From a virus (taxonomy: Duplodnaviria; Heunggongvirae; Uroviricota; Caudoviricetes): a DNA stretch of 64,000 nucleotides. The DNA lies in the IMG/VR virus record IMGVR_UViG_3300035394_000193; one strand, written 5' to 3'. Both the position numbers and the translations under genes were made by a program. A model generated the notes under the pieces. That model saw nothing but the letters and a program-made list of their open reading frames with translations, did no database searches and was not told where the DNA came from. Each line of letters begins with the position of its first letter. Position 1 is the first letter of the stretch. This document shows positions 1 through 59,443 of this stretch, piece after piece.

Positions 1-594
1 ATCTCTCGATGTAATTTGTGGTTTATAGTCAGAACCAGGTTTCAATTTATCAAGGTTTGGATCAATAAGGATTTGTTGTTCCTTTACAGTAGTCTTGTTG
101 ATTTGTTCAACTAAAGGTTTCTGTACAATTGCCCGGTTTTTGTATTCTTCGGCTGTATTTGGTTCCCAGATATCCGTTTCAGTACGAACGGGAATACTTT
201 GAATCATTTGGATCAACTCTCCTTTTTCAAGGATTGACTTGAGGCAAAGCAATTCGTTTGAGGTAAATTCACCCCATGAAGTTCCACCAACTACCAGATC
301 TGCTGTGGCAACGCCCATACCATTGGTACGTTCTTTTGTCAAAACATTCTGAATGTAAGTTTCGGCTGACTTAATGAAGTAATCAAGTTTTTCAGGTACG
401 GTTGTGACTACTTTTACATAACCACGTTTGGTTGGGTCATCAATCATCACATCATTTTGTTGATATGTGTTTTTGAATCCCGTGAATGCTCCTTGAGATT
501 TATCAAAGAACTTTGCATAATCTTTCACAATTGCTACATACCTTGCAGCAGCGTCTTGTGTCAGTGCTAATACTAATTTAAGTTTTCTTGACAT
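1..594 (-). CDS. hypothetical protein, partial (C-terminal part lies beyond window start)
   Basis: Minus-strand frame open from ATG (revcomp of cat at 592-594) to window edge with no stops; sits immediately downstream of the PurA-like gene in the same operon; no recognisable motif. Confidence 0.5.
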   Translation of the reverse strand, partial: MSRKLKLVLALTQDAAARYVAIVKDYAKFFDKSQGAFTGFKNTYQQNDVMIDDPTKRGYVKVVTTVPEKLDYFIKSAETYIQNVLTKERTNGMGVATADLVVGGTSWGEFTSNELLCLKSILEKGELIQMIQSIPVRTETDIWEPNTAEEYKNRAIVQKPLVEQINKTTVKEQQILIDPNLDKLKPGSDYKPQITSRD

Positions 595-608
595 TTTGTT
601 TTTGTTTA

Positions 609-1691
609 TTAAAATGATTTAAGGTTTTCGGATTTATCGCTATGACTAAGTAATACTTCAGAAAATCCTAAAGTAGTATTAATCATATCAATAAAATCAT
701 ATTCGCTTAGGGCTTGTATTAATTGCCCATTAATAGTCAATTGCCAATCGTGTTCTACGTGATCAAGACAAGTAATGACTAATACATCACGATGTTTGTT
801 TAGGTATTCGTCTTTACTAACAGCATATTGTAACAAATCTAAATCCAGAATGGATATTCTAAACTCACCTTGCCATTTGTTATACACATTTGTTTCAAGA
901 GGATTAGGTTTGATATTATGAATAAACTGTTCATTAGTCATTGGACCATTACCATGACGAGTTTGGTATGCTCTAGTTACTGCATAGCATTTAGGAGTAT
1001 ATCCCATTTCTAAGATATTTGTTGTTCCTACATTCGAGCGAGTAACATGTGGGAAGAATCCATAATGTTGGTCAAGAAGTAACCCTTGTGAACCTTCAAA
1101 GATATGTGATGGAACTGATGGCAAAACAGTGTACATTTTAATTCGAGCATGTGTAGTGATAAAGTCTATTGCTTTACGAAACTCAATATTATTAGCTGTA
1201 CAAAGATAAAATTCTTCCATTAAACCATATTTGATATCAAATACAGTTTTATTGAATAAATCTTCAAATAACAATGAATGATACGCTTCTTCTCTGCGTT
1301 TAGTGGAGCCTACACCTGTGCCACATGTTCCATTTTTTGCATCCATACTTTGATTATACTGCTTATCCAATGGAGTAGTTACTGGACATTTTGCATGGAT
1401 ATGCAAAATAGGACGAATTCCTTTCTGTTCCAATACTTTCAATTCATTATAGATACCAACAGGATCAACTGTACAATATTGTGACCAATAAGTCGGGGCT
1501 CCATTTAAAGAACCTGATCCAAAATTGGAAAAAATATGTCGAAGTTCATCTTTTACAACGGTATGACCTGCTTGTTGACCTCCTGAATATCGGATTATTG
1601 CAGCATTTGGATTTTGAAGAGAAAGGTAGTTTGTTACTAATCCTTTCCCTTCATCTCCAAATTCTATGCCTATTACAGCTTTTGCATTCAT
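609..1691 (-). CDS. adenylosuccinate synthetase family protein, short form (PurA/PurZ-like)
   Basis: 360 aa ORF carrying PurA signature motifs: GDEGKG P-loop near the N-terminus, GGQQAGHT (GGxNAGHT), GTCGTGVGS (GTTxxGIGP-like), FEGSQG (FEGAQG). It is about 70 aa shorter than bacterial PurA, as in the archaeal/viral PurZ-like clade. Confidence 0.8.
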   Translation of the reverse strand: MNAKAVIGIEFGDEGKGLVTNYLSLQNPNAAIIRYSGGQQAGHTVVKDELRHIFSNFGSGSLNGAPTYWSQYCTVDPVGIYNELKVLEQKGIRPILHIHAKCPVTTPLDKQYNQSMDAKNGTCGTGVGSTKRREEAYHSLLFEDLFNKTVFDIKYGLMEEFYLCTANNIEFRKAIDFITTHARIKMYTVLPSVPSHIFEGSQGLLLDQHYGFFPHVTRSNVGTTNILEMGYTPKCYAVTRAYQTRHGNGPMTNEQFIHNIKPNPLETNVYNKWQGEFRISILDLDLLQYAVSKDEYLNKHRDVLVITCLDHVEHDWQLTINGQLIQALSEYDFIDMINTTLGFSEVLLSHSDKSENLKSF

Positions 1692-1811
1692 TTATTCAGC
1701 TGCAGTTTCTTCTACAACTTCTTCGACTTGAACCTCAGCAGTTTCTTCAACTGGAGTTTCAGTTTGGCCCAGTTCTTCAAGACTGGTTGATTGATATTGA
1801 ATATTTCCCAT
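1692..1811 (-). CDS. small acidic ORF (39 aa), stop codon abuts the PurA-like start
   Basis: ATG at 1811 (revcomp of cat 1809-1811); translates MGNIQYQSTSLEELGQTETPVEETAEVQVEEVVEETAAE with stop tta at 1692-1694; too short to support firmly. Confidence 0.3.
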   Translation of the reverse strand: MGNIQYQSTSLEELGQTETPVEETAEVQVEEVVEETAAE

Positions 1812-1838
1812 GGTTTTTATTAATTTATTGATTGTGAA

Positions 1839-2732
1839 TTACAACATTTGGAATGATGGAGGATTATCCTTGGATGGACCAAGTATTGGATTCTCCGGGG
1901 TTGAACCATATGGATGCGGCTCAGTAATAACTGTTGATTTTTCAACAGTTTTAGTATTTTCAAATACAATCCTGGCAATCGTTTTAGGAATATCAGTTAT
2001 ATTTGCAATTTTGATACAGTTTTCACCAAGTACTTCTGCCCAACCGTGATATACATCACTTGAATATCCAATAAATAAATGGTAGACATTATACGTTTCT
2101 TTTGCCTTGGCTATTAATTCAGCCGAAGTAAACGTTGATGCTTCGGAACTACCCATGATTTCTTTGATGGCTGAAGCTGGATAGGATTTGTGATTGTTTT
2201 CATCACCAATGGTAAAGAGAAATCCTTTTTGGCCACGTTTCTCAAAACTGTCAAGTACAGTATGATAAGCAGCAAAATAATGAGCCAAACCATATGATTC
2301 GCCTCCATTACCACCGCCGCCACCTTCAGGCCATACACTTGTTAACCAATGATCAAGTAATGCATCACTTGATTCAAATTGAGCAACTTGTAAAGGAGAA
2401 GCATCACATTTGTGATCACCTACTGCTAAGAATAATAATTGAGGGTCTGGAATTCCAGCCTCAATAATAGTACCCATAATAGTAGGAAGCCCCTCTTTAA
2501 TTAATTGATGGGGTATAACACCCATTGAACCGGTAACGTCAAGTGCAAGTACAATTGACACTGTGTTTGGATGATCTGCAGAATCTCTTGATTCACGAAT
2601 TTTCACATCTCTTGGATTCATATCAGGATGAATCTGACGTTGGGTAAAAACTTGTTCAAAAGATTTTGTAGCATAACCTAAGTCTATACTACGACTTGCA
2701 CGATCTACTGTTGAATATTGGCCGTATCCCAT
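1839..2732 (-). CDS. von Willebrand factor A (vWA) domain protein
   Basis: 297 aa; MIDAS-like motif ALDVTGSMG (DxTGS); stop/start overlap (ATGA) with the upstream gene 2732-3100, so it is operonic. Confidence 0.7.
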   Translation of the reverse strand: MGYGQYSTVDRASRSIDLGYATKSFEQVFTQRQIHPDMNPRDVKIRESRDSADHPNTVSIVLALDVTGSMGVIPHQLIKEGLPTIMGTIIEAGIPDPQLLFLAVGDHKCDASPLQVAQFESSDALLDHWLTSVWPEGGGGGNGGESYGLAHYFAAYHTVLDSFEKRGQKGFLFTIGDENNHKSYPASAIKEIMGSSEASTFTSAELIAKAKETYNVYHLFIGYSSDVYHGWAEVLGENCIKIANITDIPKTIARIVFENTKTVEKSTVITEPHPYGSTPENPILGPSKDNPPSFQML

Positions 2733-3100
2733 TAGACCAACTCAATTTCATAAGTATGTCCAAAAAGACTATTGTAACGTTTTTTACATTCATTTAATTG
2801 AATGGTAGTGTTACGAATTTCGTATGCGGCTTTCGCATCAGCTTCAATAAAAGCTTCAGGATCGAAATCAACCATTTTTAATGTGGTTACATTTTCCGGC
2901 GACATATCAAGGGATGCTTCAACATTACGATTTAATCGTTTTAATGTTTGAGCCATATCCTCAATTTTACGTTTGTAAGAAAGTTCAGCATCTTCTAAAA
3001 TAGAAAGAGCACGCCCTTCTTTAATTTGTTTAATGTTTCTGGATAGGGATGCCCATAGGGTTCCATTTTTACCAGCAACTTCTTCAGTAATTTCTGACAT
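2732..3100 (-). CDS. hypothetical protein (helical, coiled-coil-like)
   Basis: 122 aa ORF, charged and helix-favouring composition; first gene downstream of the small-RNA array on the minus strand. Confidence 0.5.
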   Translation of the reverse strand: MSEITEEVAGKNGTLWASLSRNIKQIKEGRALSILEDAELSYKRKIEDMAQTLKRLNRNVEASLDMSPENVTTLKMVDFDPEAFIEADAKAAYEIRNTTIQLNECKKRYNSLFGHTYEIELV

Positions 3101-3884
3101 TGTTTTGATTTTGTTGTTAATAAATAATAATGAATTAAAAATGGAAATTAAACATGTAATTTTGGCGAGCCGTTAACGGGCTCGAGTTTTAGAAGTAACA
3201 TGTTTATAGCCAAGTATATGGACATAGAAAGCAGACAGGTGTGCGGATTTGAACCGTTATCATCCGGTCGAAACCAGAAGAATTGAACCTAGAAGTAACC
3301 TATCTATAGCCATGAAAATGCAAAAGAAATTGGGAATTAAATTAGTAATTTTTACGATTACGAATGTAGAATTAGAAGTAACTAATTTGTAGCCAATTTG
3401 TGTTTTAAAAGAAAATGAAATTGTGTCAGTGGAGTTCAAATTAAGAGTTTGATGCCTTTCGGCGGAAGTAACTAGACACATAGCATTTTAAAAATGCACT
3501 ATCTTTCTAACTTAATTAGGTTGGGGTATGCCCAAAGATAATACACTGTATTGAAAAAATAAACAACTAATGGGAATCGGCACCCAAAATATCTAGACAC
3601 TAAAGTAACGAAATGCTCCAACCAAGTTAAGATTATTAATCTTACCATCGAATCTTCGCGCCGTCACACTATAACGGTTTATGTCTAATATGTCTGCTAG
3701 TACAGTTGTTTATTTTAAGATTGTTGGTTTTTACTTTAAAAACCTAAAGTCAGCCATAAAAAGATTAAGGTTCATGATTTGAAAACCCTGTAAATAACCA
3801 AATCATCTTTAAATAAAGTTCAGGCCGGAACTTTTTCAAGATTTACAGAGTTTATATTGTTGTAGTAATTATGTAAGTAAAATG

Positions 3885-3959
3885 AAGTGTAGGAGCGGGC
3901 TCGAACCGCTGACCTTTCTTACTTTCGTAAGACTGCTCTAACCTCCTGAGCTACCTATA
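3885..3959 (-). ncRNA. tRNA-like RNA with canonical acceptor, D- and T-arms but a GAAA-tetraloop hairpin in place of the anticodon arm
   Basis: Minus-strand sequence GTATAGG-TA-GCTCAGGAGGTTAGAGC-A-G-TCTTAC-GAAA-GTAAGA-AAGGTC-AGCGG-TTCGAGC-CCGCT-CCTACAC. The 7-bp acceptor has one mismatch, the D-loop AGGAGGTTA and the T-loop TTCGAGC are canonical, but the anticodon position is a 6-bp stem closed by a GAAA tetraloop (4- or 6-nt loop, no 7-nt anticodon loop). It lies directly 3' of motif copy 3965-3987. Confidence 0.5.
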
Positions 3960-4120
3960 CGGTCAAGAAGTAACTTACATATAGCCACTAAGTATTTGTT
4001 AAAAGAAAAGGAAATTTCGCACGTAAAGCTTAAACCCAAGATAAGTGCCCTAAGGGCGGAAGTAACGATACGAATAGCCTATTGTAAAATAAAGGAAATT
4101 GTACATCTAATTTTTACGAG

Positions 4121-4176
4121 ACAGCTACTCTAACCAACTGAGCTACAAGCTGGGACTCGAACCCAGGACCCGCTGT
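4121..4176 (-). ncRNA. tRNA elbow-like element: T-arm hairpin and D-arm-like hairpin enclosed by a 5-bp closing stem, with no acceptor or anticodon arm
   Basis: Minus strand ACAGC-GGGTC-CTGGG-TTCGAGT-CCCAG-C-TTGTAGCTCAGTTGGTTAGAGTAGCTGT-CTCG. A canonical T-arm (CTGGG/CCCAG, loop TTCGAGT) precedes a canonical D-arm sequence (TAGCTCAGTTGGTTAGAGTA), and the outer ACAGC/GCTGT can pair. The arm order is inverted relative to a tRNA, so it cannot be a normal tRNA gene. Confidence 0.35.
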
Positions 4177-4415
4177 TTTAGAAGTAAGATATACATAGCC
4201 TTATGTATTTTTATTCAGGTAGTGGACACATACTAATAATAGTAATATGTCGAGGATGAGCCCAACTATTTCTGTTAGCTAAACATTCTTTGATTGATTG
4301 AACAATGTTTGGATTCGGCAATGTTATTGAAACTTCATCATTTTGAAAATTTTGTGCCGTAAAAGTTTCTACAGCATAATCAGGAACTAGTAAAAAGCAA
4401 ACAAAGTAGTTCATT

Positions 4416-5354
4416 TTATTTAGGTTTAGGTATTGCAAAGGACACTCCAATAGAACCTAACAACAATACAAGAACAACTAGTAGAGATGCAATTGTAGGC
4501 ACCTCAATAAGCCAATTTGTATTGATATATTGAGCAGCAGGTAATAACATCTTTACTCCTATAAATAAGAGAACGATTGTAATACCATATTTTAGTGCCC
4601 ATAATTTATCAACGGCACTTGCAAGAACAAAATACAAAGCCCTTAATCCTAACACTGCAAAGATATTCGAGGTATATAGAACAAAGACATTAGTAGTAAC
4701 ACCAAATGCTGCTGGAATGCTATCCACGGCAAACATTATGTCAGTAGTTTCAATCATTAAGACGGTAATGAATAAAGCTGTTGCATATCGTACAATTTTA
4801 GCTCCATCATGTTTCTTAATAAAGAATTTTTTACCATGATATTCAGCAACTACAGGAAAGTGTTTACGAAAGAATAGAACAATTTTATTCTCATGTATGT
4901 CTGGATCTCCGCTATCTTTTGAAAACATTAATTTAAGTGCAGACCAAATTAAGATTAGTGCAAATACATATAGTATTGGATGAAACAAACTAATAAGTGT
5001 TGCTCCTCCAATTATGAATAATGCTCTAAAAATGATTGCACCAAGAATGCCCCAAAATAATGCTATGTGTTGATACTTGGCTGGTGTCGCAAAATATCCG
5101 AAGATCAGATAAATGACAAACAAATTATCTACACTTAATGACTTTTCAATCACATACGCAGTGAACCATAAATTACCAATATCATGCCCATATTCCCAAT
5201 AAACCCAGCCCCCAAACATGCAAGATATGGCTATCCATACTGCACTCCAACCAAGGGCTTCTTTAAACGAAAATGCGTGTTCTTTTTTGTTAACGACCAA
5301 AAGGTCAATTAGCAACAATACAATTACTATTGCTAAGAAAATAATCCACCTCAT
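4416..5354 (-). CDS. terC: TerC family integral membrane protein
   Basis: 312 aa, many predicted TM helices, N-terminus MRWIIFLAIVIVLLLIDLLVV and overall pattern typical of the TerC/Alx family; sits within the Ter-type gene neighbourhood. Confidence 0.75.
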   Translation of the reverse strand: MRWIIFLAIVIVLLLIDLLVVNKKEHAFSFKEALGWSAVWIAISCMFGGWVYWEYGHDIGNLWFTAYVIEKSLSVDNLFVIYLIFGYFATPAKYQHIALFWGILGAIIFRALFIIGGATLISLFHPILYVFALILIWSALKLMFSKDSGDPDIHENKIVLFFRKHFPVVAEYHGKKFFIKKHDGAKIVRYATALFITVLMIETTDIMFAVDSIPAAFGVTTNVFVLYTSNIFAVLGLRALYFVLASAVDKLWALKYGITIVLLFIGVKMLLPAAQYINTNWLIEVPTIASLLVVLVLLLGSIGVSFAIPKPK

Positions 5355-5426
5355 ACTTATCTATTGTTTTTAAAAGTTAAAATAAAAGGATGTATTGCTA
5401 CATCCTTTTACAAATTGATTGTGTAA

Positions 5427-6050
5427 TTAATCCGTTAAACTCGCGATTAGCACTTCAGCAATCGTCATGCCGGAACTTTCAATTTCATCGAAAGTTTTTG
5501 TATCGACAATGTCAAATTTCGCACCATATTTGCTTACGAGATCATCGTCAAGCATGGTTAAAAACCGGGTTGCATTGCGATCATTCCCTACCTGGAGGAA
5601 GCTGATTCCAATTTCATCATCGCGTTCAATTACGCGGGTGGCTTCCACAATTGCTTTTACAACTTCTTCTTGGCTGTCCGGCTCACCGTCAGTTACAACA
5701 ATCAGAATGATTGGCTTTACACCTTTACGGGTGCGATTGGCTGTATAGTTGGTCAATACTTTTTTCAGCATTAAAGCTGTATCAGTACCTCCCATTGGCT
5801 CACTTTCACGGAATATACGGGCAACTTGGCTTGTACCATCTGTTACATTCTCATGCATTACTACTGCACGATTGAATAGGACAACAGTAATACCATCGTC
5901 ATCAGATTCGGCACATTTATTGGCTACGGCAACGGTTGCTTCTTCTGCTTCCTGCCATCTGGTTTTACCATGTGATCCTGGATTTGCCATACTACCACTG
6001 CGGTCTATTGCAACGATAAAGTCATACTTTTTTAAATCTTCACTTGTCAT
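5427..6050 (-). CDS. vWA domain protein (TerY-like)
   Basis: 207 aa; MIDAS motif IVAIDRSGSM (DxSxS) and VVTDGEP (TDG) typical of vWA domains; GC-richer than the surrounding phage genes. Confidence 0.75.
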   Translation of the reverse strand: MTSEDLKKYDFIVAIDRSGSMANPGSHGKTRWQEAEEATVAVANKCAESDDDGITVVLFNRAVVMHENVTDGTSQVARIFRESEPMGGTDTALMLKKVLTNYTANRTRKGVKPIILIVVTDGEPDSQEEVVKAIVEATRVIERDDEIGISFLQVGNDRNATRFLTMLDDDLVSKYGAKFDIVDTKTFDEIESSGMTIAEVLIASLTD

Positions 6051-6068
6051 TTTGTTTTGTTTTAATGA

Positions 6069-6938
6069 TTATTTAAGGAGATAATCTTCTTTAATAAGAA
6101 GGTCTTTGATGAATTGTAAGTTCTTTTGGTAATCGGGAATTAAGTGATAACCATTACCTATTGCTAAATGATATAGATTGGCTAAAACTTTTCTTGCTTG
6201 ATACATTACGAACACAGTAAATGCAAGTTCGTCTTTATGATTTAGAATATACTTGACAACACGTGTGTTTGGTAAAAAGTTTTCATTCTTGATAATTTTA
6301 TCTAAGAACAAAAGATTCTTAACAAAAGCATAGTTTAAGTAATTCTCAACTTTTGGGTCAATGGTAGGATCAGATAATTCAGCAAAGTAAAGGAAAACGT
6401 GATCATTGGTGATGTTATTTTCTTTAAAAGTGCGCTCAATAATTCGTTCATGTGAACCGGTGATTTTGATATCATCCATCATGATTAAAAACTTTCTTTC
6501 TAAGAATGCTTTATCAATTTGGAATCCATCTTTGGAGATTAAGGCAAGGCGTTGTTCAGCGCTTAATTCTCCATAGTCTTCTTTATATGTATTGGTACGA
6601 TGAATTTTACTTAATTCTACGACTGGATAACCTATATCAACAAGATGTTGGTTAAGAAATTGTACGAAGTAATTACTCAACGACCAAGTAGCGGTTGGAA
6701 TGAAACAGTAGGGACTTGACATCACAACAAACTCACGATGATTCTGCTGCAAAATGTTTAAAAATACTTTACTATTAATGAACTTTCTGGCAAGTTCGTA
6801 GCCATATTTCCTGGCAATGTCTTTATCGCCAAACTTAAACTTGGAGTATTCTACAGGTAGAAATCCATACTTTAGTTGATCAAATTCAGTACTGTCAGTT
6901 TTCTTAATGATTTTATGCAGAGCAAATGTATATCTCAT
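6069..6938 (-). CDS. phosphoribosyltransferase (PRTase)-like protein of a Ter-associated biosynthetic module
   Basis: 289 aa; PRPP-binding-type motif FLIMMDDIKITGS (four hydrophobics, DD, x(I/V)TTG-like); overlaps the HAD gene start by 4 nt, so operonic. Confidence 0.6.
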   Translation of the reverse strand: MRYTFALHKIIKKTDSTEFDQLKYGFLPVEYSKFKFGDKDIARKYGYELARKFINSKVFLNILQQNHREFVVMSSPYCFIPTATWSLSNYFVQFLNQHLVDIGYPVVELSKIHRTNTYKEDYGELSAEQRLALISKDGFQIDKAFLERKFLIMMDDIKITGSHERIIERTFKENNITNDHVFLYFAELSDPTIDPKVENYLNYAFVKNLLFLDKIIKNENFLPNTRVVKYILNHKDELAFTVFVMYQARKVLANLYHLAIGNGYHLIPDYQKNLQFIKDLLIKEDYLLK

Positions 6939-7627
6939 TTGTAAACCTCCTTCACATAAGCAACAACATCCATAATTGTTTTATCATTAGAGTTGATGAT
7001 CATAGATTGCATCCCAATTTGAGTAGGACCAAAACCATCAGCTATTGGATTATCTCCAACATGTAGTATCTCTTTAGTTACAAATCGAGAGCGAGTTGTA
7101 ATGTATCCAAAAAATGCGGGGTTTGGTTTTGCTAATTCAATTTCATCAGAGAAGTATTCATCTACAAACATGAAATAAACCTTTTGTTTACGAAGTACTT
7201 CTCGAATGGTTTCACCTAGAATAAAACCTGTATTGGAACCAATAGTTAATACTGGAACTATATCAGATAATATATCAAGAGCCCGAAAAGTATTATCATC
7301 GTATAGACTTGGAGGATTTTCCAAGAATAAAGTTTGAAATTCATCAGAGATACTACTAAGAGTAGAATAATCAATCGGAGTTAATTCTTCATAACCCATC
7401 TCTAATAATAGAAAGGCAATCATTTGAAGGCTGTCAAAATGTAGTCCTTGTATTTCAACCAGACGCGTACATTGAATGTCTATCTTTCTCATCATTTTTG
7501 CTATTTCATATTCAGTTAACTTTTTAGGGTTATACTTTTGAAATAGCATGGCCGCTTTTGCTTTTTTGAAATCAGGATTTGATTTCAGCAACGTAAGCCA
7601 CACGTCAAAGGAAAGGTGGTTAATCAT
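6935..7627 (-). CDS. HAD-superfamily phosphatase-like protein
   Basis: 230 aa; N-terminal LSFDVWLTL resembling HAD motif I (hhhDxDxT, imperfect) and C-terminal HVGDNPIAD matching motif IV (GDxxxD). Confidence 0.55.
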   Translation of the reverse strand: MINHLSFDVWLTLLKSNPDFKKAKAAMLFQKYNPKKLTEYEIAKMMRKIDIQCTRLVEIQGLHFDSLQMIAFLLLEMGYEELTPIDYSTLSSISDEFQTLFLENPPSLYDDNTFRALDILSDIVPVLTIGSNTGFILGETIREVLRKQKVYFMFVDEYFSDEIELAKPNPAFFGYITTRSRFVTKEILHVGDNPIADGFGPTQIGMQSMIINSNDKTIMDVVAYVKEVYK

Positions 7628-7693
7628 GTCTTTTTTAGGATTTAAAAAGGAGTGCCATTACAGCACCCCTTTTGATTTAATTGGTAAAGAGTC

Positions 7694-8269
7694 CTACAAG
7701 AGGGTTTTGATTGTTTCGGCAATCTGGTTAATGTCACCATTGGCACCATTACCCATTGCTTCAAATTTCCACTCGCCGTTGTGACGGTAGAGTTGACCCA
7801 TAATCATACCGGTTTTTCCGGAATAGTCTTCAGACAGATCAAATTTGGCAAGTTCAGCAGCATTCGCAGGATTGAATACCCTCACAAAGGCATTACGAAC
7901 CTGACCAAAATGCTGTCTCCTGGCTTCGGCTTCATAAATGTTTACAATAACAACAATGCGATGTACGCCTGCGGGGACGGCAGTTAAATCAACATTGATT
8001 ACTTCATCGTCGCCATCACCGGCACCGGTAAGATTATCACCCTGATGGGTAACACCAAATTCTTTCAAATGACGGAAGTAAATAACACCCTTATTGCCTT
8101 CGTAAATTGACTTGTCTTCCTTTAAAAGGATAACAGTACTGTCAAGGTCAACAGCGGGTCCATCGGTTTTTACATCCCATCCACAGCCAATGGCTACTTG
8201 GGTAAGTCCTGGGTTTTCTTTGGTAATGTTTACTCTTTCTCCTTTTTCAAGGTTCAATGGATTGTTCAT
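7694..8269 (-). CDS. terD: TerD domain protein (tellurite resistance / stress protein family)
   Basis: 191 aa; the GDNLTGAGDGDDEVINVDL calcium-binding DGDD-type segment and overall pattern are characteristic of TerD/TerE/TerZ. Confidence 0.85.
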   Translation of the reverse strand: MNNPLNLEKGERVNITKENPGLTQVAIGCGWDVKTDGPAVDLDSTVILLKEDKSIYEGNKGVIYFRHLKEFGVTHQGDNLTGAGDGDDEVINVDLTAVPAGVHRIVVIVNIYEAEARRQHFGQVRNAFVRVFNPANAAELAKFDLSEDYSGKTGMIMGQLYRHNGEWKFEAMGNGANGDINQIAETIKTLL

Positions 8270-8690: not shown

Positions 8691-8711
8691 TGTTTCTAAG
8701 ATTAAATTAAA

Positions 8712-8748
8712 AACCTCCGCCAACTATTATTGTCAAGCGGCGGAGGTT
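8712..8748 (-). terminator. rho-independent terminator / attenuator hairpin
   Basis: AACCTCCGCC-N17-GGCGGAGGTT, a 10-bp GC-rich stem followed on the minus strand by TTTTTAATTT; it lies between the 703-aa gene and the ATG at 8690. Confidence 0.55.
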
Positions 8749-8756
8749 TAATTGAA

Positions 8757-8886
8757 GGGGGTTTAACACCCCGCGGTTTGGCGAAGGGATCGCCTTCTGG
8801 TACAAAGTAATAAGGAATTGATTCAGTGGCTTTTTCAGCGACACCCCTTCTATTTTATGTACATAGAAGTAACTCAATCATAGCCT
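8757..8886 (-). promoter_or_regulatory. motif copy plus two further GC hairpins forming a structured leader upstream of gene 8376-8690
   Basis: Motif copy at 8865-8886 (AGGCTATGATTGAGTTACTTCT on the minus strand), then hairpins GGCGAAGGGATCGCC (8780-8794) and GGGGGTTTAACACCCC (8757-8772), and then the terminator hairpin. Confidence 0.35.
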
Positions 8887-8911
8887 TGTTATTATCACTT
8901 TGCCCAATCTT

Positions 8912-11023
8912 TTATATACCCATATATTCCATGGTCTTTACATACGAAGATGCAAAGTCATCGAATAGGAAGTGAGTTTCTGCAGTTTCTTTCGATACAA
9001 CACGACCACGTGCCTCGACATGCCATTGTAGCAAGTCATATACACTGACCTTTGGTAAAGATATGTACGGTTTCAACGCATCGAAAAATTCCGACGATTG
9101 ACCGTAAACAAAACTTGAAAATCCATCATAATCCAGGTCCAAATAAATTGATTCGCGAGCAACTAAATCGTATGCTGCAACCAATACCATATTTCCAGCA
9201 CTTTTTAGGAGCATAGAGTTTTGAATGGTATCTGGTTTCCAGGTTTTGTTCGATTCAGGAAATTGTCGTTCCATTACACCAGCAACACATTCTTTCAAAT
9301 CAGAAAGTTTTCCTCCTTGAAAGTTATGTATTACCATAATGAAATAATTGTACCCGCGTCTTACAGCTTCGTCAACCACAATATCAACATATTCTGCACA
9401 AGCGCCTTGACGATGACGAACATCACCAGAGTAACATCCAAGTCCAGGTACATTTTGATTTCCATTGTATCCAAATGACATACTGCCTTTTGGACCAATT
9501 AAAAATCCGTGTAAATCCAAATCTTGGTCACCATGTTGATCATACCAATGAATAAAAGGTCTAATAACCTTTTTACCTTCACCAAATGGTGTTCTTTGTC
9601 CACGTATTACGGGAACTAAACTATCATTCAAGCTACGCATGTTTGTTGGTAATGGAATCTTTTTCAATTCTTCATCAATCCAACAATCGCCGAGTGCAGG
9701 CAAATCAGCAAACTTACCTTTAATGATATCAAAGATAGTAGACTGTATAGCATCAATCTTTTCAGCTGCAATTGCAGGTAGTGAGGGAAGATTAGTATGT
9801 TTCCTTGCACCTTTAATCATAACCTTGCGATTATTTGAAGGTAGTCTTCTATCTTCAAAATGACTAAATACCTCAAACAATACTTTATTTGAAGCTTTGG
9901 CTCCAATTTTAGCAAGAAGATTGAGAATCAATTGCAAACTACTTTTATTCGCAGTACGAACAAGAAAGTCTAACCTACGTAGAAATTCACCAGGACGTTC
10001 AGCAAGCTTTGTAATCCCAGTGTTAGCGGAAATACTAAAAGCTTTAGTTACTTCGCCGTACCATGATACAACTTTCTCATTTCTAATTTGGTCAAATGCT
10101 TTATAAGCACGAGGAAACAATGCTTTATATTCACCAGGATGTAAGATTTCTCCAATCCTAACCCAACGTTGGTCTTTTAATTTCATTTCACGAACATCCA
10201 AACTAGATTTCTCCAAGAGTTCTAAAATGAATTTACGTTCAGCTCGTTTGAATTTCTTGAACTTGAATTTCTCTCTTTCAGGATTTGCTACAGTAACATA
10301 ACTTCTACGATAGCCACTTTGTTGTCTTACTGTTTTACGAGGTACGGCAGGAAGAGATACATCTCCGCCTGATAGATATACGATGATTCTCAATACATCG
10401 GTCGATGTAAGAGATGGCAATTGAACTGTACCAAGACCACGGCCGGTAGTAATCAATTTGCCAATCATTGTACATAAGTTTTCTTTAAAAGGGATACTTT
10501 CGGGGAAAGTTAGGAATGGATATTCTGCAACAAACCACTCAAGAACTTTTAAATCAGCAGGAGTCAATGATGTACCTGCTTTTGCAAGACTTGTAAAGAT
10601 ATTAGCAAAATCCTGTTCAGTGCCAAGGGTAATAGGTCGGTATTTTACTTGCTCGAATGCTGTACTTTTCGTACGAGTCCATTCGTTAGCAGTGAAAGAT
10701 CCTCCAGACCAATAACCAAGAAGTTGATTAAACCATAATTGTTGTTCCGACATTTCAATTACTTGTGTCGGAAATCCTTTGTATATGGGTTGATAGTCAC
10801 GTTGACCACCGGTCATTTCTTTTAAGTAGTCGAGAACTTCATTATAGAAGTCTTTAATGTTTGCGGCATCAGTATATCCCAATGCTTCTAAAGCATCTGA
10901 ATCTAACATATAGCCAAACCTCATTAGTTCAGCTTGGCACATCATAGCCAAATTGCGGTTATCAATTCCGTTATTCGGAACAACCACAAGACCTTTTTGG
11001 AAAGCGATTACATTTTTATTCAT
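8912..11023 (-). CDS. large hypothetical protein (703 aa), first gene of the Ter-type operon
   Basis: Long uninterrupted ORF with no Walker A motif and no domain I can name from sequence; followed by the motif and hairpin leader. Confidence 0.6.
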   Translation of the reverse strand: MNKNVIAFQKGLVVVPNNGIDNRNLAMMCQAELMRFGYMLDSDALEALGYTDAANIKDFYNEVLDYLKEMTGGQRDYQPIYKGFPTQVIEMSEQQLWFNQLLGYWSGGSFTANEWTRTKSTAFEQVKYRPITLGTEQDFANIFTSLAKAGTSLTPADLKVLEWFVAEYPFLTFPESIPFKENLCTMIGKLITTGRGLGTVQLPSLTSTDVLRIIVYLSGGDVSLPAVPRKTVRQQSGYRRSYVTVANPEREKFKFKKFKRAERKFILELLEKSSLDVREMKLKDQRWVRIGEILHPGEYKALFPRAYKAFDQIRNEKVVSWYGEVTKAFSISANTGITKLAERPGEFLRRLDFLVRTANKSSLQLILNLLAKIGAKASNKVLFEVFSHFEDRRLPSNNRKVMIKGARKHTNLPSLPAIAAEKIDAIQSTIFDIIKGKFADLPALGDCWIDEELKKIPLPTNMRSLNDSLVPVIRGQRTPFGEGKKVIRPFIHWYDQHGDQDLDLHGFLIGPKGSMSFGYNGNQNVPGLGCYSGDVRHRQGACAEYVDIVVDEAVRRGYNYFIMVIHNFQGGKLSDLKECVAGVMERQFPESNKTWKPDTIQNSMLLKSAGNMVLVAAYDLVARESIYLDLDYDGFSSFVYGQSSEFFDALKPYISLPKVSVYDLLQWHVEARGRVVSKETAETHFLFDDFASSYVKTMEYMGI

Positions 11024-17632: not shown

Positions 17633-17944
17633 TTAAATAGCTTCCTTAATAGTTTTTCCTCGTCTAGCAAGTTACCTTATGCTTCCGATTCTTCAGTAGG
17701 CTATTTTAGGGACATTGTTTACCACCGACACTTTGGTCCAGTAGCCCCTCTGGCTTTAGCCGTTAACCGGCAGATTCAATAAATTTATTACTTTTATTGA
17801 ATCATTTTCCTGGCATCACCTATCTATCGCTAGCATAGAAATGGCGGCTTTCACAGCCTACAGAAAATACGAAAAATCATCACATAATTAGTCTCTACCT
17901 AACCTTGTTAACGTTATTCAAAGAAGAACACTGATGATTTAATG

Positions 17945-18019
17945 GAGTTCCTACGGGACTCGAACCCGTGCCTCGACCCGCTGAATGGGTCCGCTCTACC
18001 AACTGAGACGTAAAGAACT
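17945..18019 (-). tRNA. suppressor tRNA, anticodon UCA (reads UGA)
   Basis: Minus strand AGTTCTT-TA-CGTCTCAGTTGGTAGAGCG-GACCC-ATTCAGC-GGGTC-GAGGC-ACGGG-TTCGAGT-CCCGT-AGGAACT-C. Anticodon stem GACCC/GGGTC closes the 7-nt loop A-T-TCA-G-C, so positions 34-36 are TCA. T-arm and D-loop are canonical; the D-stem has one mismatch; the variable loop is short (not Sec-like). Confidence 0.7.
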
Positions 18020-19632: not shown

Positions 19633-20356
19633 TATTTCTAGGTTTTTATAGGTTTGACCTGATATTATTATATCAACGCACTAGACTTAACAATGTTTAT
19701 ACTCTTCTAGTAGAGTCGAACAAATAAGGCAATCAAAGGATTACTCCCTTGACTGCCTATTCATTCATTTCATAAAGCCTGAGTTTGGTACAACTTTACA
19801 ATAACAGTGTTGCTTCTTTGAAGCGGCTCCATAGTGTCCCACCATTACCGATTGATTTTTTGACAAACCAATAAACTTTCCTCGTAATATACTCTTTGAG
19901 ACGGCTAACCTCATACCCTTTATTACGTCTTCATTGCATCACGATATTATGCAACTAAATCTGCTATGCTGATTAGTATTCGGAAAATCTTTTCACACTT
20001 TTGCCATATAGGATTTAGACAATCAAACATGTGTATTTTTAAAGTCTTAGACTTACAGACTCAATCATAAAAATAAGCCACGCATCCGAAGCTTTGGTGC
20101 TCCGGAAATCCCAATCGCCAATATCATTAATTTGTAACAATGATTCAAACCCTACAGACTTAACCTGCTCAATCCTGGGCTGTGACAGTTATTTTTGAAT
20201 CATTATTACATTTTAAATAACCCAATAAATCCGTATATCCTTCTCAACGGACTCCACCTCATTCGGATAAGCTCTAGCTTAGAGGAATAGAATGGGTTTT
20301 AATAAAAGATTCACCCTCACCACTATTACTAGTGTATATTGGGTGAACCTAGATCA

Positions 20357-25631: not shown

Positions 25632-25703
25632 CGGTTCTTAGTGTAATGGCAGCACATTAGTCTTCAAAACTAATAGGTGAGGGTTCGAGTCCTTCAGAGC
25701 CGG
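25632..25703 (+). tRNA. suppressor tRNA, anticodon UCA, tRNA-Trp-like
   Basis: CGGTTCT-TA-GTGT-AATGGCA-GCAC-A-TTAGT-CTTCAAA-ACTAA-TAGGT-GAGGG-TTCGAGT-CCTTC-AGAGCCG-G. The 7-bp acceptor has one G-U pair; the anticodon loop C-T-TCA-A-A puts TCA at 34-36 with A37, i.e. the tRNA-Trp loop CUCCAAA with C35 changed to U; T-loop TTCGAGT. Confidence 0.75.
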
Positions 25704-25707
25704 CAAA

Positions 25708-31097: not shown

Positions 31098-31673
31098 ATG
31101 AAATGATTTGTATATGATAATGTTAATGGTAATATATCTTTAGATGAAGAAGGACTTTTATTAGTTGAAGAATTTGATGCATTATTAAGTTTAGATAGAA
31201 ATAAAACTTCTACTGATAAAACTGGAAAACAAAAACTTAGAGCTTTTAGAGAATTAAAATATATATATTTATTCTTTGATTGAGCTAGTCCTTATTTCCA
31301 ATTTTCGGAACAAGATAAACATAATGAAGCATTAAAAGATTCTCGTTTAACACAAGCAGAATTTGATGACCCATTATTTCGTGCAGCTTGTAAAAAATAT
31401 GATTCACTACAAAACTCGTCCCTTGATTTAAGATTATTAAAATCTGCAATGGGAGCAGTTGAGAAACAAATATTTTATTTGGACCATGTAGATTTACAAG
31501 AAAGAGATCCCATTAGTGGCAAACCTATTTTTAAAAGCAAAGATTTAATTGCAGAAATTAAAGGTTGTAGAGATTTAATCTCAACTCTTAAAGAGTTAGA
31601 ATATCAAGTTAAAAAAGGAATGCAAACTGAAAGTACGCTTAGAGGAAATACTGAACTTGGAATATTTGATTAA
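31098..31673 (+). CDS. hypothetical protein, recoded (TGA at 31104 and 31290); candidate small terminase by position
   Basis: ATG 31098 is in frame with ORF 31449-31673; 191 aa; lies immediately upstream of the TerL-like gene. Confidence 0.45.
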
Positions 31674-31675
31674 TT

Positions 31676-59432: not shown

Positions 59433-59443
59433 TAATTATACTG

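What the first reader, a model, noticed from the sequence alone, without database searches (positions are those of the whole stretch)
3165..4201. Array of eight promoter-like motif units giving non-tRNA small RNAs inside the Ter operon
The motif (minus-strand GGCTAT-N8-GTTACTTCY) recurs 8 times over 1 kb plus once at 8865, each with an AATTTCC(T)TTT box 15-25 nt upstream and a 75-130 nt GC-hairpin-rich unit downstream (GCCGAAAGGC, GCCCTTAGGGC, CGAGCCGTTAACGGGCTCG). There is no ORF here. It is not a CRISPR array, because repeats are imperfect and spacers irregular. It does not match the Bacteroidetes TTTG/TAnnTTTG promoter consensus, so it could be recognised by a phage-encoded or virion RNA polymerase, or be an RNA-processing signal. 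The perfect palindrome GCATTTTAAAAATGC (3481-3495) lies inside it
Basis: seen in the sequence. Interest (0 to 1): 0.75.

Follow-up and report, generated by a model that had tools for sequence, protein, structure and literature searches.

The report
Phage array of Y-RNA-like genes
The repeated "promoter-like" motif is really the conserved stem of a new family of small structured RNAs, some shaped like tRNAs, that phages from very different hosts encode in tandem arrays right next to one large unannotated protein that probably binds them.

Summary
The motif is real, but its spacing is N6/N7, not N8. There are seven supported copies at 3136-4206 and one at 8806-8891, all on the minus strand.

It is not a two-box promoter. 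The "spacer" plus GT is the 5' strand of an 8-9 bp helix, P1. Its 3' strand lies directly before the "AATTTCC" box of the same unit. GG and CC, with their flanking bases, form an outer helix, P0. Both helices covary across more than 60 units from about 25 loci.

Each unit reads P0, internal loop (CUAY/AUUU), P1, unpaired UACUUCU, then a variable module. The modules include a YrlA-like permuted tRNA mimic, a tRNA body with a GAAA-capped anticodon stem, a T-arm hairpin and plain loops.

Units sit on the same strand next to a roughly 700-aa protein (window 8912-11023) in every locus with a confident match. This includes loci retrieved by the RNA motif alone and Xanthomonas phage XacN1, at 24% protein identity. 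The protein has a TerD C-terminal domain. Its helical N-terminal domain matches Ro60/TROVE best in fold searches, but only weakly.

Best reading: a divergent, phage-borne Ro60/Y-RNA-like RNP with multi-copy RNA arrays. RNA-protein binding and function are inferred, not shown.

The parts
8912..11023 (-). Gene for a 703-aa protein with a helical-repeat N-terminal domain (TROVE/Ro60-like by fold only) and a C-terminal TerD domain. It is the proposed protein partner of the RNA units.
8806..8891 (-). Unit U8, the first unit, starting about 20 nt after the stop codon of the 703-aa gene. P0 is AAGG/CCUU and P1 is GAUUGAGU/ACUGAAUC. The UACUUCU core can pair with a downstream AUAGAAG.
   Evidence: R1 54.5 bits (seed sequence); R2 51.7 bits. 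The MFE fold shows P0, the internal loop and P1. The same position directly after the gene stop is seen in L005, L006, L008, L017, L021, L022 and L026-L032.
8709..8746 (-). Intrinsic terminator (CCUCCGCC...GGCGGAGG followed by UUUUU) that closes the transcription unit made of the 703-aa gene and U8.
   Evidence: Read directly from the sequence.
4087..4206 (-). Unit U1, with a YrlA-like module. The scaffold continues into an anticodon-like stem (ACAGC/GCUGU), a T arm (CUGGG UUCGAGU CCCAG), a very short link in place of the acceptor stem-loop, and a D arm (AGCUC AGUUGGUUA GAGU).
   Evidence: Rfam YrlA RF02553, 35.5 bits, E 9.5e-6, full model span, below the gathering score of 69. Orthologue L010 scores 38.7 bits with a compensatory T-stem change, CUGGG/CCCAG to CUGAG/CUCAG. 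L026 12941-13056 scores 42.8 bits. R1 41.8 bits, not a seed.
4003..4085 (-). Unit U2. The core is the UACUUCC variant, followed by the hairpin GCCCUUAGGGC and a segment of about 22 nt.
   Evidence: R1 29.2 bits, not a seed. The MFE fold shows P0 and a P1 with one bulge. Orthologue in L010 at 476-549.
3857..3992 (-). Unit U3. A complete tRNA-shaped body (3886-3960) sits inside P1 (AUGUAAGU/ACUUACAU). Its anticodon arm is a 6-bp stem capped by a GAAA tetraloop, so it cannot decode.
   Evidence: ARAGORN calls it 'tRNA-???'. Rfam tRNA 37.4 bits. R1 34.2 bits. The extended capped stem covaries in L010, L018 and L004: UCUUAC-GAAA-GUAAGA, CUCUUGU-GAAUA-ACAAGAG, CCUUGGU-GAAA-GCCAAGG.
3492..3856 (-). 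Stretch inside the array that is not a unit. About 147 nt are shared with L010, and about 225 nt are an insertion specific to the window. It contains the weak 'eighth motif' near 3600-3620 and ends at the palindrome.
   Evidence: No R1 or R2 hit. Fold z-scores are about -0.9. Comparison with L010.
3409..3491 (-). Unit U4. P0 is AAAAUG/CAUUUU, the core is UACUUCC, followed by the GCCGAAAGGC hairpin and the conserved segment CUCUUAAUUUG.
   Evidence: R1 32.7 bits, R2 50.5 bits, not a seed. MFE z-score -2.8. The same subtype occurs in L010, L018 and L027.
3325..3400 (-). Unit U5, the minimal unit. P0 is AAAUUGG/CCAAUUU, P1 is AAAUUAGU/ACUAAUUU, and the loop is 27 nt and poorly conserved.
   Evidence: R1 72.4 bits (seed). 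MFE z-score -4.1. The loop differs in L010 and L018 while the scaffold is kept.
3219..3317 (-). Unit U6. P1 acts as an acceptor-like stem. The insert has a UUCG-capped hairpin and a T-arm-like hairpin (CGG UUCAAAU CCG), with no D arm.
   Evidence: R1 38.2 bits, not a seed. The L010 orthologue reaches the Rfam tRNA model at 36.7 bits. Covariation is seen in the hairpin (UCUGGU/ACCGGA against CUCGGU/ACCGAG) and in the T stem (CGG/CCG against UGG/CCA).
3136..3217 (-). Unit U7, the last unit, ending about 40 nt before the ATG (3100) of the 122-aa ORF. P1 is AAACAUGU/ACAUGUUU and the insert is the hairpin GAGCCCGUUAACGGCUC.
   Evidence: R1 62.1 bits (seed). MFE z-score -3.9. The same unit type lies directly before a gene in L004 and L018.

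Best explanation
The region is a tandem array of genes for one family of small structured RNAs. Each RNA forms a long stem from its two ends.

- An outer helix, P0, always ends in GG/CC.
- A small conserved asymmetric internal loop follows: CUA(Y) on the 5' side and AUUU on the 3' side.
- An 8-9 bp helix, P1, has a free sequence but ends in G-C and U-A.
- A conserved unpaired UACUUCU follows, leading into a variable apical module. The module can be a plain loop, a capped hairpin, a T-arm hairpin, a whole tRNA-shaped body without a usable anticodon, or a YrlA-type permuted tRNA mimic.

Shown here: the helices, by covariation; the modular architecture; and the tight genetic linkage to the roughly 700-aa protein gene.

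Inferred: the conserved stem and internal loop are the binding site for that protein, whose N-terminal helical domain looks like the Ro60/TROVE ring and whose C-terminal domain is TerD in place of Ro60's vWA domain. The variable modules, many of them tRNA-shaped, would then tether or sequester host factors that recognise tRNA or structured RNA, as Y RNAs tether Ro60 to PNPase.

The units are embedded in operons on the gene strand, so they are probably cut out of longer transcripts. This step is also inferred.
For: Motif enrichment:
- 6 hits against 0.18 expected.

P1 covariation:
- 96.7% of cells paired against 33-47% when the partner is slid, with 7 of 8 pairs showing double changes, in 15 seed units.
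- 90.4% against 31-40% in 61 model hits.
- In a test anchored on position only, 15 of 40 units have at least 7 of 8 pairs, against 1.1% in the control.

P0 covariation (P0 was not used to select the units):
- 91, 78 and 75% paired at the three flanking positions, against 42-52% when partners are shuffled.
- 82.5% paired, with 6 of 7 pairs showing double changes, on a MAFFT alignment.

Folding and model searches:
- Unconstrained MFE folds of all 8 window units give the same P0, loop and P1.
- Model R1 finds 8 units in the window, 5 of which were not seeds. It finds none in the unrelated loci L001-L003 or in MT835470.
- YrlA hits at E 1e-5 to 3e-6 occur in the window, L010 and L026.

Same module in permuted topology:
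- It replaces the anticodon loop of tRNA bodies in L026, L018, L027 and L032.

Linkage to the protein gene:
- Ten loci fetched only by the DNA motif encode the protein just upstream of the units; another of them is cut inside the gene, and the loci without it are short contigs of 1-5 kb.
- Every protein-fetched locus whose flanks are held has units beside the gene on the same strand (L026-L033, down to 36% identity in a GC-rich planctomycete contig).
- The same holds for a gut phage contig at 29% and for the cultured Xanthomonas phage XacN1 at 24%, which has 3 units in the 496-nt gap before ORF396.

Protein fold:
-.

Precedent:
- Y RNAs lie within 4 kb of Ro60 on the same strand, including in 22 phages (PMC4201824).
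- Thermus phage phiLo Ro60 binds two adjacent Y-like RNAs (PMC12135203).
Against: - No RNA-seq, end mapping or binding data exist, so transcription, processing and protein binding are all inferred.
- No sequence or profile method links the protein to TROVE.
- The canonical Ro60-binding motif of Y RNAs (GNCGAAN0-1G, or GGUCCGA) is absent.
- The YrlA hits are well below Rfam's gathering score and are driven by the tRNA-like part.
- One distant homologue locus, Mycobacterium phage WXIN, has no detectable unit. The hits in Rhodococcus phage Weasels2 are marginal.
- One unit in L032 encloses a normal-looking tRNA-Met(CAU), which fits a processing role as well as a tethering role.
Confidence: 0.6

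Rival explanations
1. Promoter reading. GGCTAT-N-GTTACTTCY is a bipartite promoter for a phage-encoded or virion RNA polymerase, and each copy starts a small transcript.
For: - The motif is short, bipartite and tolerates 1 nt of spacing variation.
- All copies are on the gene strand, and some lie just upstream of genes (3191-3211 before the ORF at 3100; L004 before the 698-aa gene).
- No sigma-70-type or Bacteroidetes-type promoter excess is seen around the array.
Against: - The 'spacer' covaries with a segment 30-110 nt downstream, and the bases flanking GG covary with those flanking CC. This constraint acts on RNA, not on polymerase recognition.
- In four loci the two halves occur in swapped order inside a tRNA body.
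- The motif is kept in phages of Xanthomonas and in contigs binned to Planctomycetota and Bacteroidota, and always beside one protein gene rather than spread over the early or late genes of a genome.
Confidence: 0.04
2. Processing-cassette reading. The paired leader and trailer (P0/P1) form a maturation or stabilisation structure for tRNAs and tRNA-like RNAs. The cargo is released by RNase P, RNase Z, RNase III or a phage nuclease, and the scaffold has no further role.
For: - L032 7552-7674 encloses a standard tRNA-Met(CAU) scoring 65.6 bits.
- U3, U6 and several units in relatives carry tRNA-shaped inserts.
- The arrays lie in tRNA-, tmRNA- and SmpB-rich parts of large phage genomes.
- The units are embedded in operons, so they must be cut out.
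Against: - Many units (U5, L022, L026b/e/h/i) have only a 21-27 nt loop that is not conserved between close relatives, while the scaffold is conserved.
- About 14 conserved unpaired nucleotides (CUAY, AUUU, UACUUCU) are kept across phyla, more than a generic duplex for RNase III would need.
- This reading does not explain the strict linkage to one protein gene.
Confidence: 0.17
3. Ribozyme reading. The conserved internal loop and junction form a new self-cleaving ribozyme that cuts the multi-unit transcript into monomers.
For: - The unit is a small two-helix core with invariant unpaired nucleotides and a freely variable apical insert, repeated in tandem in phage intergenic DNA. This is the usual look of small self-cleaving ribozymes.
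- This genome already carries a pistol ribozyme.
- L026 has a hammerhead-like hit.
Against: - No known ribozyme family matches the array, even at E 10.
- The permuted versions inside tRNA bodies would be destroyed by self-cleavage.
- Linkage to one protein gene is not typical of ribozymes.
- Nothing here tests catalysis.
Confidence: 0.1
4. Repeat-debris or mobile-element reading. The units are miniature inverted-repeat elements or decayed tRNA genes with no function.
For: - tRNA fragments occur inside some units.
- The array has gained an insertion of about 225 nt relative to L010.
- L010 has gained a small ORF between two units.
Against: - The helices change by compensatory substitutions instead of being conserved inverted repeats.
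- Orientation and position relative to the protein gene are fixed across loci whose proteins are 24-70% identical.
- No copies are scattered elsewhere in the 64-kb window.
Confidence: 0.02

Closest known systems
Bacterial and phage Ro60 (Rsr)-Y RNA ribonucleoproteins: YrlA/YrlB (Rfam RF02553; Chen et al. 2014, PMC4201824) and Thermus phage phiLo Ro60 with Yrl1/Yrl2 (PMC12135203)
   Same: - Small RNAs whose 5' and 3' ends form a long stem interrupted by a conserved internal loop, with a variable apical module that in YrlA is a permuted tRNA mimic (T arm, D arm).
- Several RNAs are encoded next to the protein gene on the same strand and are probably processed from one precursor.
- The systems occur in large phages.
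- U1, L010 and L026 units align to the YrlA model over its full length.
- The partner protein's helical domain gives Ro60/TROVE as its best specific fold match.
   Different: - The conserved nucleotides differ: GG-CUAY, AUUU-CC and UACUUCU replace GNCGAAN0-1G or GGUCCGA.
- Scores are about half the Rfam gathering threshold.
- Arrays hold 7 to 10 or more units rather than 1-4.
- Most units have no tRNA-like part, and some attach the tRNA body by its acceptor end.
- The protein is not recognised by the Pfam TROVE model and carries a TerD domain where Ro60 has a vWA domain.
Circularly permuted and split tRNA genes (Cyanidioschyzon merolae permuted tRNAs; Nanoarchaeum split tRNAs), from established knowledge
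   Same: tRNA bodies occur here in both gene orders. Either the ends are at the acceptor stem with the scaffold in the anticodon-loop position, or the ends are at the scaffold with the acceptor closed.
   Different: There is no bulge-helix-bulge motif and no evidence of splicing or circularisation. The elements are bacterial-phage encoded. The inserted element is a conserved helix-loop-helix module shared with units that contain no tRNA part at all.
Large phage-associated ncRNAs found near tRNA clusters (GOLLD, ROOL)
   Same: They are phage-borne structured ncRNAs of unknown function in tRNA-rich regions. A GOLLD RNA lies 2 kb from the array in L027.
   Different: GOLLD and ROOL are single RNAs of 400-800 nt with no dedicated adjacent protein. 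The units here are 75-135 nt, tandem and linked to a protein gene.
   Same: A conserved sequence of about 21 nt recurs on the gene strand ahead of short transcribed units.
   Different: Parts of the motif covary with downstream sequence and can be permuted, so the constraint acts on RNA structure.

Membership tests
Y RNA / YrlA (Rfam RF02553) | A terminal stem formed by the 5' and 3' ends, interrupted by a conserved internal loop or bulge | tested here: met
   P0, the CUAY/AUUU loop and P1 are supported by covariation and by the MFE folds of all 8 units.
Y RNA / YrlA (Rfam RF02553) | The Ro60-binding sequence GNCGAAN0-1G (bacteria) or GGUCCGA (animals) in the 5' strand of the stem (PMC4201824) | tested here: not met
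   Absent from all eight units as read from the sequence. The conserved nucleotides are GGCUAY, UACUUCU and AAUUUCC instead.
Y RNA / YrlA (Rfam RF02553) | A tRNA-like domain with T and D arms in permuted order | tested here: inconclusive
   Met for U1, L010 355-466 and L026 12941-13056, though in U1 the acceptor stem-loop is reduced to 2 nt. It is not present in most units (U2, U4, U5, U7, U8).
Y RNA / YrlA (Rfam RF02553) | A score at or above the Rfam gathering threshold of 69 bits | tested here: not met
   35.5, 38.7 and 42.8 bits. No hit in gathering mode.
Y RNA / YrlA (Rfam RF02553) | Encoded close to a Ro60 (TROVE plus vWA) gene and on the same strand | tested here: inconclusive
   Strict same-strand adjacency to one protein family is met. 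That protein is TROVE-like only by weak fold matches and has TerD instead of vWA.
Y RNA / YrlA (Rfam RF02553) | Physical binding to the Ro60 protein | not testable with these tools
   Needs EMSA, RIP or structural work.
Ro60 / TROVE protein family (Pfam PF05731 plus vWA) | A sequence match to the TROVE model | tested here: not met
   No Pfam family for any of 28 members at E up to 10. No Ro60 chain in PDB profile searches. No TROVE PHROG.
Ro60 / TROVE protein family (Pfam PF05731 plus vWA) | A HEAT-repeat ring fold | tested here: inconclusive
Ro60 / TROVE protein family (Pfam PF05731 plus vWA) | A C-terminal vWA domain with a MIDAS site | tested here: not met
Promoter (sigma-70, Bacteroidetes -33/-7, or phage RNAP type) | Sequence constraint limited to the DNA recognition elements, with the element lying upstream of the transcript | tested here: not met
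   The spacer and the flanks covary with downstream RNA segments. The module is internal to tRNA bodies in four loci. There is no excess of sigma-70-like or TTTG/TAnnTTTG sites.
tRNA (decoding) | A cloverleaf with a 7-nt anticodon loop | tested here: not met
   U3 passes the Rfam tRNA threshold at 37.4 bits, but its anticodon arm is a 6-bp stem with a GAAA tetraloop, and ARAGORN gives 'tRNA-???'.
CRISPR array | Near-identical direct repeats separated by unique spacers of regular length | tested here: not met
   Only about 20 nt per unit are conserved, unit lengths are 76-136 nt, and the variable parts are internally base-paired.
Known self-cleaving ribozymes (hammerhead, twister, pistol, hatchet and others in Rfam 15) | A match to a family covariance model | tested here: not met
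   No ribozyme hit in 3050-4300 at E up to 10.

The most novel reading that the evidence does not exclude
This is not just a divergent Ro60/Y RNA pair. It could be a distinct, widespread phage RNP class in which a TerD (Ca2+/ligand-sensing) domain fused to an RNA-binding helical ring is loaded with a whole repertoire of RNAs sharing one handle. Those RNAs display anticodon-less tRNA bodies in three different topologies.

Its role could be to capture or disarm host enzymes and immune nucleases that act on tRNA. Alternatively it could make or repair unusual tRNAs during infection, which is of interest here because the phage recodes TGA.

A variant of this reading is that the conserved loop and junction are catalytic, a new self-cleaving or ligating RNA that generates the permuted forms.
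Probability: 0.2. Interest if true: 0.9.

Novelty: new variant of a known kind. Interest (0 to 1): 0.8.

Why it matters
If this reading is right, it defines three things:
- a new structured-RNA family that is absent from Rfam 15;
- its likely protein partner, a family of about 1,600-3,100 clusters at 50% identity with no Pfam model and no annotated function;
- a rule that the two are always adjacent, in phages spanning hosts as distant as Xanthomonas, with further contigs binned to Bacteroidota and Planctomycetota.

It would extend the Ro60/Y RNA idea from one to four RNAs per locus to arrays of seven to ten or more modular RNAs. It would show tRNA mimicry attached to one protein-binding handle in several topologies. 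It would also link an RNA-binding module to the poorly understood TerD/Ter stress system.

Xanthomonas phage XacN1 is cultured and carries the system, so the hypothesis can be tested directly.

It also gives annotators a practical warning. These intergenic repeats look like promoters, and some look like broken tRNAs, but they are neither.

Tried and rejected
- blastn of the region against 50,697 phage records gives no match.
- Relatives found through the neighbouring genes were not informative. TerC gave none. ORF 1839-2732 gave two loci at 52% identity, without the motif.
- The only record-level relatives of the portal and terminase, gut phage MT835470 and others, lack both the motif and the units.
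- The literature on crAss-like phage promoters gave no matching consensus. A full-text search for the core sequence returned only primers.
- The tandem-motif scan of 185,579 species-representative genomes gave 0 hits.
- The first viral-contig scan produced one chance hit in a coding region (L003). The metagenome scan produced one unrelated tandem repeat (L011). Both were discarded.
- The R1 hit at window 57743-57805 (E 0.035) lacks the core motifs and lies inside an ORF, so it is a false positive.
- The 'eighth copy' near 3600-3620 and the 365-nt spacer have no model hit and no significant fold.
- An extension of P1 by pairing GGCUAY directly with AAUUUCC, as a U8-A77 type pair, was considered. 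The Y=C variants show no compensating change, so the conserved bases are best read as an internal loop, with only GG/CC paired.
- Sequence-level links from the protein to TROVE failed in Pfam, PHROGs and PDB profile searches. The short hit to designer PPR proteins is unexplained and was not used.
- The afdb50 fold library was not available.
Full report
**1. Observation**

On the minus strand of 3136-4206 the sequence GGCTAY-N6-GTTACTTCY, or GCTAT-N7-GTTACTTCY, recurs, with one more copy at 8865-8885. With N6 and up to 2 mismatches there are 6 hits against 0.18 expected. The core GTTACTTC occurs 11 times against 2.0 expected. The AATTTCC box is present after four of the units in the strict form. 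The surrounding genes are all on the minus strand:
- a PurZ-like enzyme (609-1691) and two ORFs
- the array
- a small ORF
- TerC, a vWA protein, a PRTase, a HAD hydrolase and TerD
- a 703-aa ORF (8912-11023)

The "Ter operon" context is therefore correct.

**2. The motif is half of an RNA stem**

A scan of viral and metagenomic contigs for two motifs in tandem returned 18 loci. Lining up all instances showed that only GGCUAY and GUUACUUCU(A) are conserved, and that an (A)AUUUCC-like box always follows 30-110 nt downstream, even when no further motif follows.

The six "spacer" bases plus GU are the reverse complement of the eight bases that precede that box:
- AAACAUGU...ACAUGUUU
- AAAUUAGU...ACUAAUUU
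- AUGUAAGU...ACUUACAU
- GUAUAUCU...AGAUGUAC

The sequences differ in every unit and every locus.

The evidence for this helix, P1, is as follows:
- On 15 short units, 96.7% of cells are paired against 33-47% when the partner is slid. Seven of eight pairs show changes on both sides. These seeds had been chosen for pairing, so three further checks were made.
- A covariance model built from them (R1) found 8 full-length units in the window, five of which were not seeds. It found 61 units over the loci and none in the unrelated control loci. On that alignment pairing is 90.4% against 31-40%.
- In a test that uses position only (the last box before the next motif), 15 of 40 units have at least 7 of 8 pairs, against 1.1% for mismatched partners.

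A second, outer helix, P0, is formed by GG/CC plus the flanking bases:
- The three flanking positions pair in 91, 78 and 75% of 55 units, against 42-52% for shuffled partners.
- On a MAFFT alignment of 31 units, P0 is 82.5% paired, with double changes at 6 of 7 pairs. P0 played no part in selecting these units.

Unconstrained folding of each of the eight window units gives the same picture. In order it shows P0, an internal loop with CUA on the 5' side and AUUU on the 3' side, P1, an unpaired UACUUCU, and then a variable insert.

**3. What the units carry**

| Unit | Coordinates | Content | Evidence |
|---|---|---|---|
| U1 | 4087-4206 | Aligns over the whole Rfam YrlA (Y RNA-like) model: 35.5 bits, E 9.5e-6, gathering score 69. 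Has a T arm, a D arm and an anticodon-like stem that continues into the scaffold. Its L010 orthologue shows a compensatory change in the T stem. | |
| U3 | 3857-3992 | Encloses a full tRNA-shaped body whose anticodon arm is a 6-bp stem capped by GAAA. The capped extended stem covaries in L010, L018 and L004. | |
| U6 | 3219-3317 | Has a UUCG-capped hairpin and a T-arm-like hairpin, both with covariation. | |
| U2, U4 | 4003-4085, 3409-3491 | Share a GC hairpin directly after the core. U4 also has a CUCUUAAUUUG segment conserved in L018 and L027. | |
| U5 | 3325-3400 | Only a 27-nt loop, which is not conserved in close relatives although the scaffold is. | |
| U7 | 3136-3217 | Carries the GAGCCCGUUAACGGCUC hairpin and precedes a gene, as in L004 and L018. 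| |

In relatives, the scaffold also appears with its halves swapped: the AAUUUCC half comes first, then a 3-9 nt loop, then the GGCUAY half. In that form it sits in the anticodon-loop position of otherwise normal tRNA bodies in L026, L018, L027 and L032. One L032 unit encloses a standard tRNA-Met(CAU).

The same module in permuted connectivity is what a folded RNA domain can do and a promoter or terminator cannot.

The 365 nt between U3 and U4 are not a unit. Part of this stretch is an insertion that L010 lacks.

**4. Linkage to a protein**

The isolated unit at 8806-8891 begins about 20 nt after the stop of the 703-aa ORF and is followed by an intrinsic terminator. Three lines of evidence show the linkage is general:
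- Among the loci fetched by the DNA motif alone, ten encode a homologue of this protein immediately upstream of the units. Another is cut inside the gene, and the loci without it are short contigs of 1-5 kb.
- Conversely, loci fetched through the protein all have R1 hits beside the gene on the same strand. These loci are at 45-64% identity (L026-L032) and 36% in L033, a GC-rich 1-Mb contig binned to Planctomycetota.
- In L033 the helices are GC-rich (GGCCUGG...CCAGGCC; GGGGUCGGU...ACCGGCCCC), while CUAU, UACUUCU and GAUUU are unchanged.

Among more distant homologues:
- A gut phage contig at 29% identity has two units before the gene.
- Cultured Xanthomonas phage XacN1, at 24%, has three units in the 496-nt gap before ORF396.
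- Rhodococcus phage Weasels2 has only marginal hits, and Mycobacterium phage WXIN has none.

In the window, the Ter operon has apparently been inserted between the first unit and the rest of the array.

**5. The protein**

For the helical domain, three libraries each give a Ro60/TROVE protein as the best specific match:
- Foldseek against PDB: 9kop "Trove domain", prob 0.75, E 0.13.
- Foldseek against BFVD: a TROVE protein of a crAss-like phage, prob 0.99, E 7e-3.

No sequence or profile search supports this. The TROVE relationship is therefore a lead of moderate strength, not a finding.

**6. Mechanism**

The helices, the modular design and the gene linkage are shown. The proposed mechanism is inferred by analogy with Ro60 and Y RNAs. 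Y RNAs are encoded within 4 kb of Ro60 on the same strand, bind it through a conserved stem and loop, and use a tRNA-like module or other loops to tether partners such as PNPase (PMC4201824). Phage phiLo Ro60 binds two adjacent Y-like RNAs (PMC12135203), and TROVE proteins with tRNA-like partners have been noted in some jumbo phages (PMC7824862).

On this analogy the conserved P0-loop-P1 handle, with UACUUCU, would bind the TROVE-like/TerD protein. The variable modules, many of them anticodon-less tRNA shapes, would recruit or sequester tRNA-recognising host factors.

Because the units lie inside operons, they are probably excised from longer transcripts.

**7. Rival explanations**

| Rival | Estimated probability | Main point |
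|---|---|---|
| Pure processing cassette for tRNA-like cargo | about 0.17 | Favoured by the L032 tRNA-Met unit. Disfavoured by units that have no cargo. |
| New self-cleaving ribozyme | about 0.1 | Could not be tested here. |
| Promoter | about 0.04 | Contradicted by the covariation and the permuted forms. |
| Repeat debris or mobile element | about 0.02 | Contradicted by covariation and fixed synteny. |

**8. Comparison with known families, and novelty**

The family works like Y RNA but fails two defining tests of YrlA membership: it lacks the GNCGAA-type motif and it scores below the gathering threshold. The protein fails the TROVE sequence test and the vWA test.

Nothing in Rfam 15 matches the scaffold. 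Full-text searches found no description of it or of a TROVE-TerD protein. I therefore rate it a new variant of a known kind, with a 0.2 chance that it is something more distinct.

**9. Limits**

- There are no expression or binding data.
- Model E-values are rough.
- The host of the window's phage is unknown. Bacteroidetes-type promoters are not enriched.

Noticed in passing
window 17944-18019 (-), 25632-25704 (+), and plus-strand genes in 27000-64000: There are two tRNA genes with anticodon UCA. With TGA read as sense, the late genes become continuous: the portal at 36965-39181 is 739 aa with 4 in-frame TGA, a terminase-like frame at 31643-33871 is 743 aa with 15, and 59372-63724 is 1451 aa with 16. 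Coverage by frames of at least 150 aa rises from 0.49-0.91 to 0.74-0.99. Most of the large minus-strand genes, including the Ter operon and the 703-aa gene, have no in-frame TGA. This points to TGA recoding confined to the late module.
   Followed up: partly
window 19653-19716 (-): A pistol self-cleaving ribozyme scores above the Rfam gathering threshold (38.8 against 34.5 bits) in an intergenic stretch of the region that is poor in ORFs.
   Followed up: no
window 609-1691 (-): An adenylosuccinate-synthetase homologue falls in the PurZ PHROG (phrog_1211, E 4e-55). The phage may therefore replace adenine with 2-aminoadenine (a Z-genome). No other Z-pathway genes were looked for.
   Followed up: no
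window 4416-8269 (-): A fairly complete Ter module (TerD, HAD, ComF-like PRTase, TerF-like vWA, TerC) sits between the first RNA unit and the rest of the array. Most related loci examined (L004, L021, L022, L026-L028, L032) have no Ter genes there (L010 has TerC), so it looks like an insertion. The RNA-linked protein itself ends in a TerD domain, which may or may not be coincidence.
   Followed up: partly
L026 13355-13490; L018 about 300-440 (-); L027 12660-12786; L032 7683-7804: These are tRNA bodies in normal gene order in which the anticodon loop is replaced by the scaffold hairpin (P1, internal loop, P0 closed by a 3-9 nt loop). The Rfam tRNA model still scores them at 55-61 bits, treating the hairpin as a long insertion. 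It is unknown whether the hairpin is removed like an intron.
   Followed up: partly
L032 7552-7674: This unit's insert is an apparently normal tRNA-Met(CAU), 65.6 bits, with a 7-nt anticodon loop and an encoded CCA. It is the only case seen of a plausibly decoding tRNA inside the scaffold.
   Followed up: no
L027 14281-14679; L026 1016-1078: A GOLLD RNA (315.7 bits) lies 2 kb downstream of the array in a 310-kb phage contig. A sub-threshold RAGATH-1 hammerhead hit occurs in L026. The neighbourhoods also hold tmRNA, SmpB and 12-24 tRNA genes.
   Followed up: no
window 8865-8871 with 8840-8848, and the equivalent first units in L005, L009, L017: In the unit that directly follows the protein gene, the otherwise unpaired UACUUCU can pair with a downstream (U)AGAAG. 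This could sequester the conserved element, possibly for autoregulation. The core never varies, so no covariation test is possible.
   Followed up: no
window 3481-3720 (-) compared with L010 1030-1046: The window has an insertion of about 225 nt relative to its closest relative, bounded by similar AAUCUUAAAAU-like sequences. The perfect palindrome at 3481-3495 is created at its edge and is absent from L010. L010 in turn has a small ORF of about 60 aa inserted between U2 and U3.
   Followed up: partly
alignment A5 (protein family), profile positions 286-338: The family profile hits designer pentatricopeptide-repeat proteins in the PDB (E about 4e-5) over a single 53-residue stretch. This is probably helical-repeat noise, but PPRs are RNA binders. 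It is unexplained.
   Followed up: no
L011 3267-3574 (-): An unrelated metagenomic contig carries a 41-nt tandem repeat containing GGCTAT-N6-GTTACTTCT. It gives weak false-positive hits to model R1, which matters for motif-only searches.
   Followed up: partly
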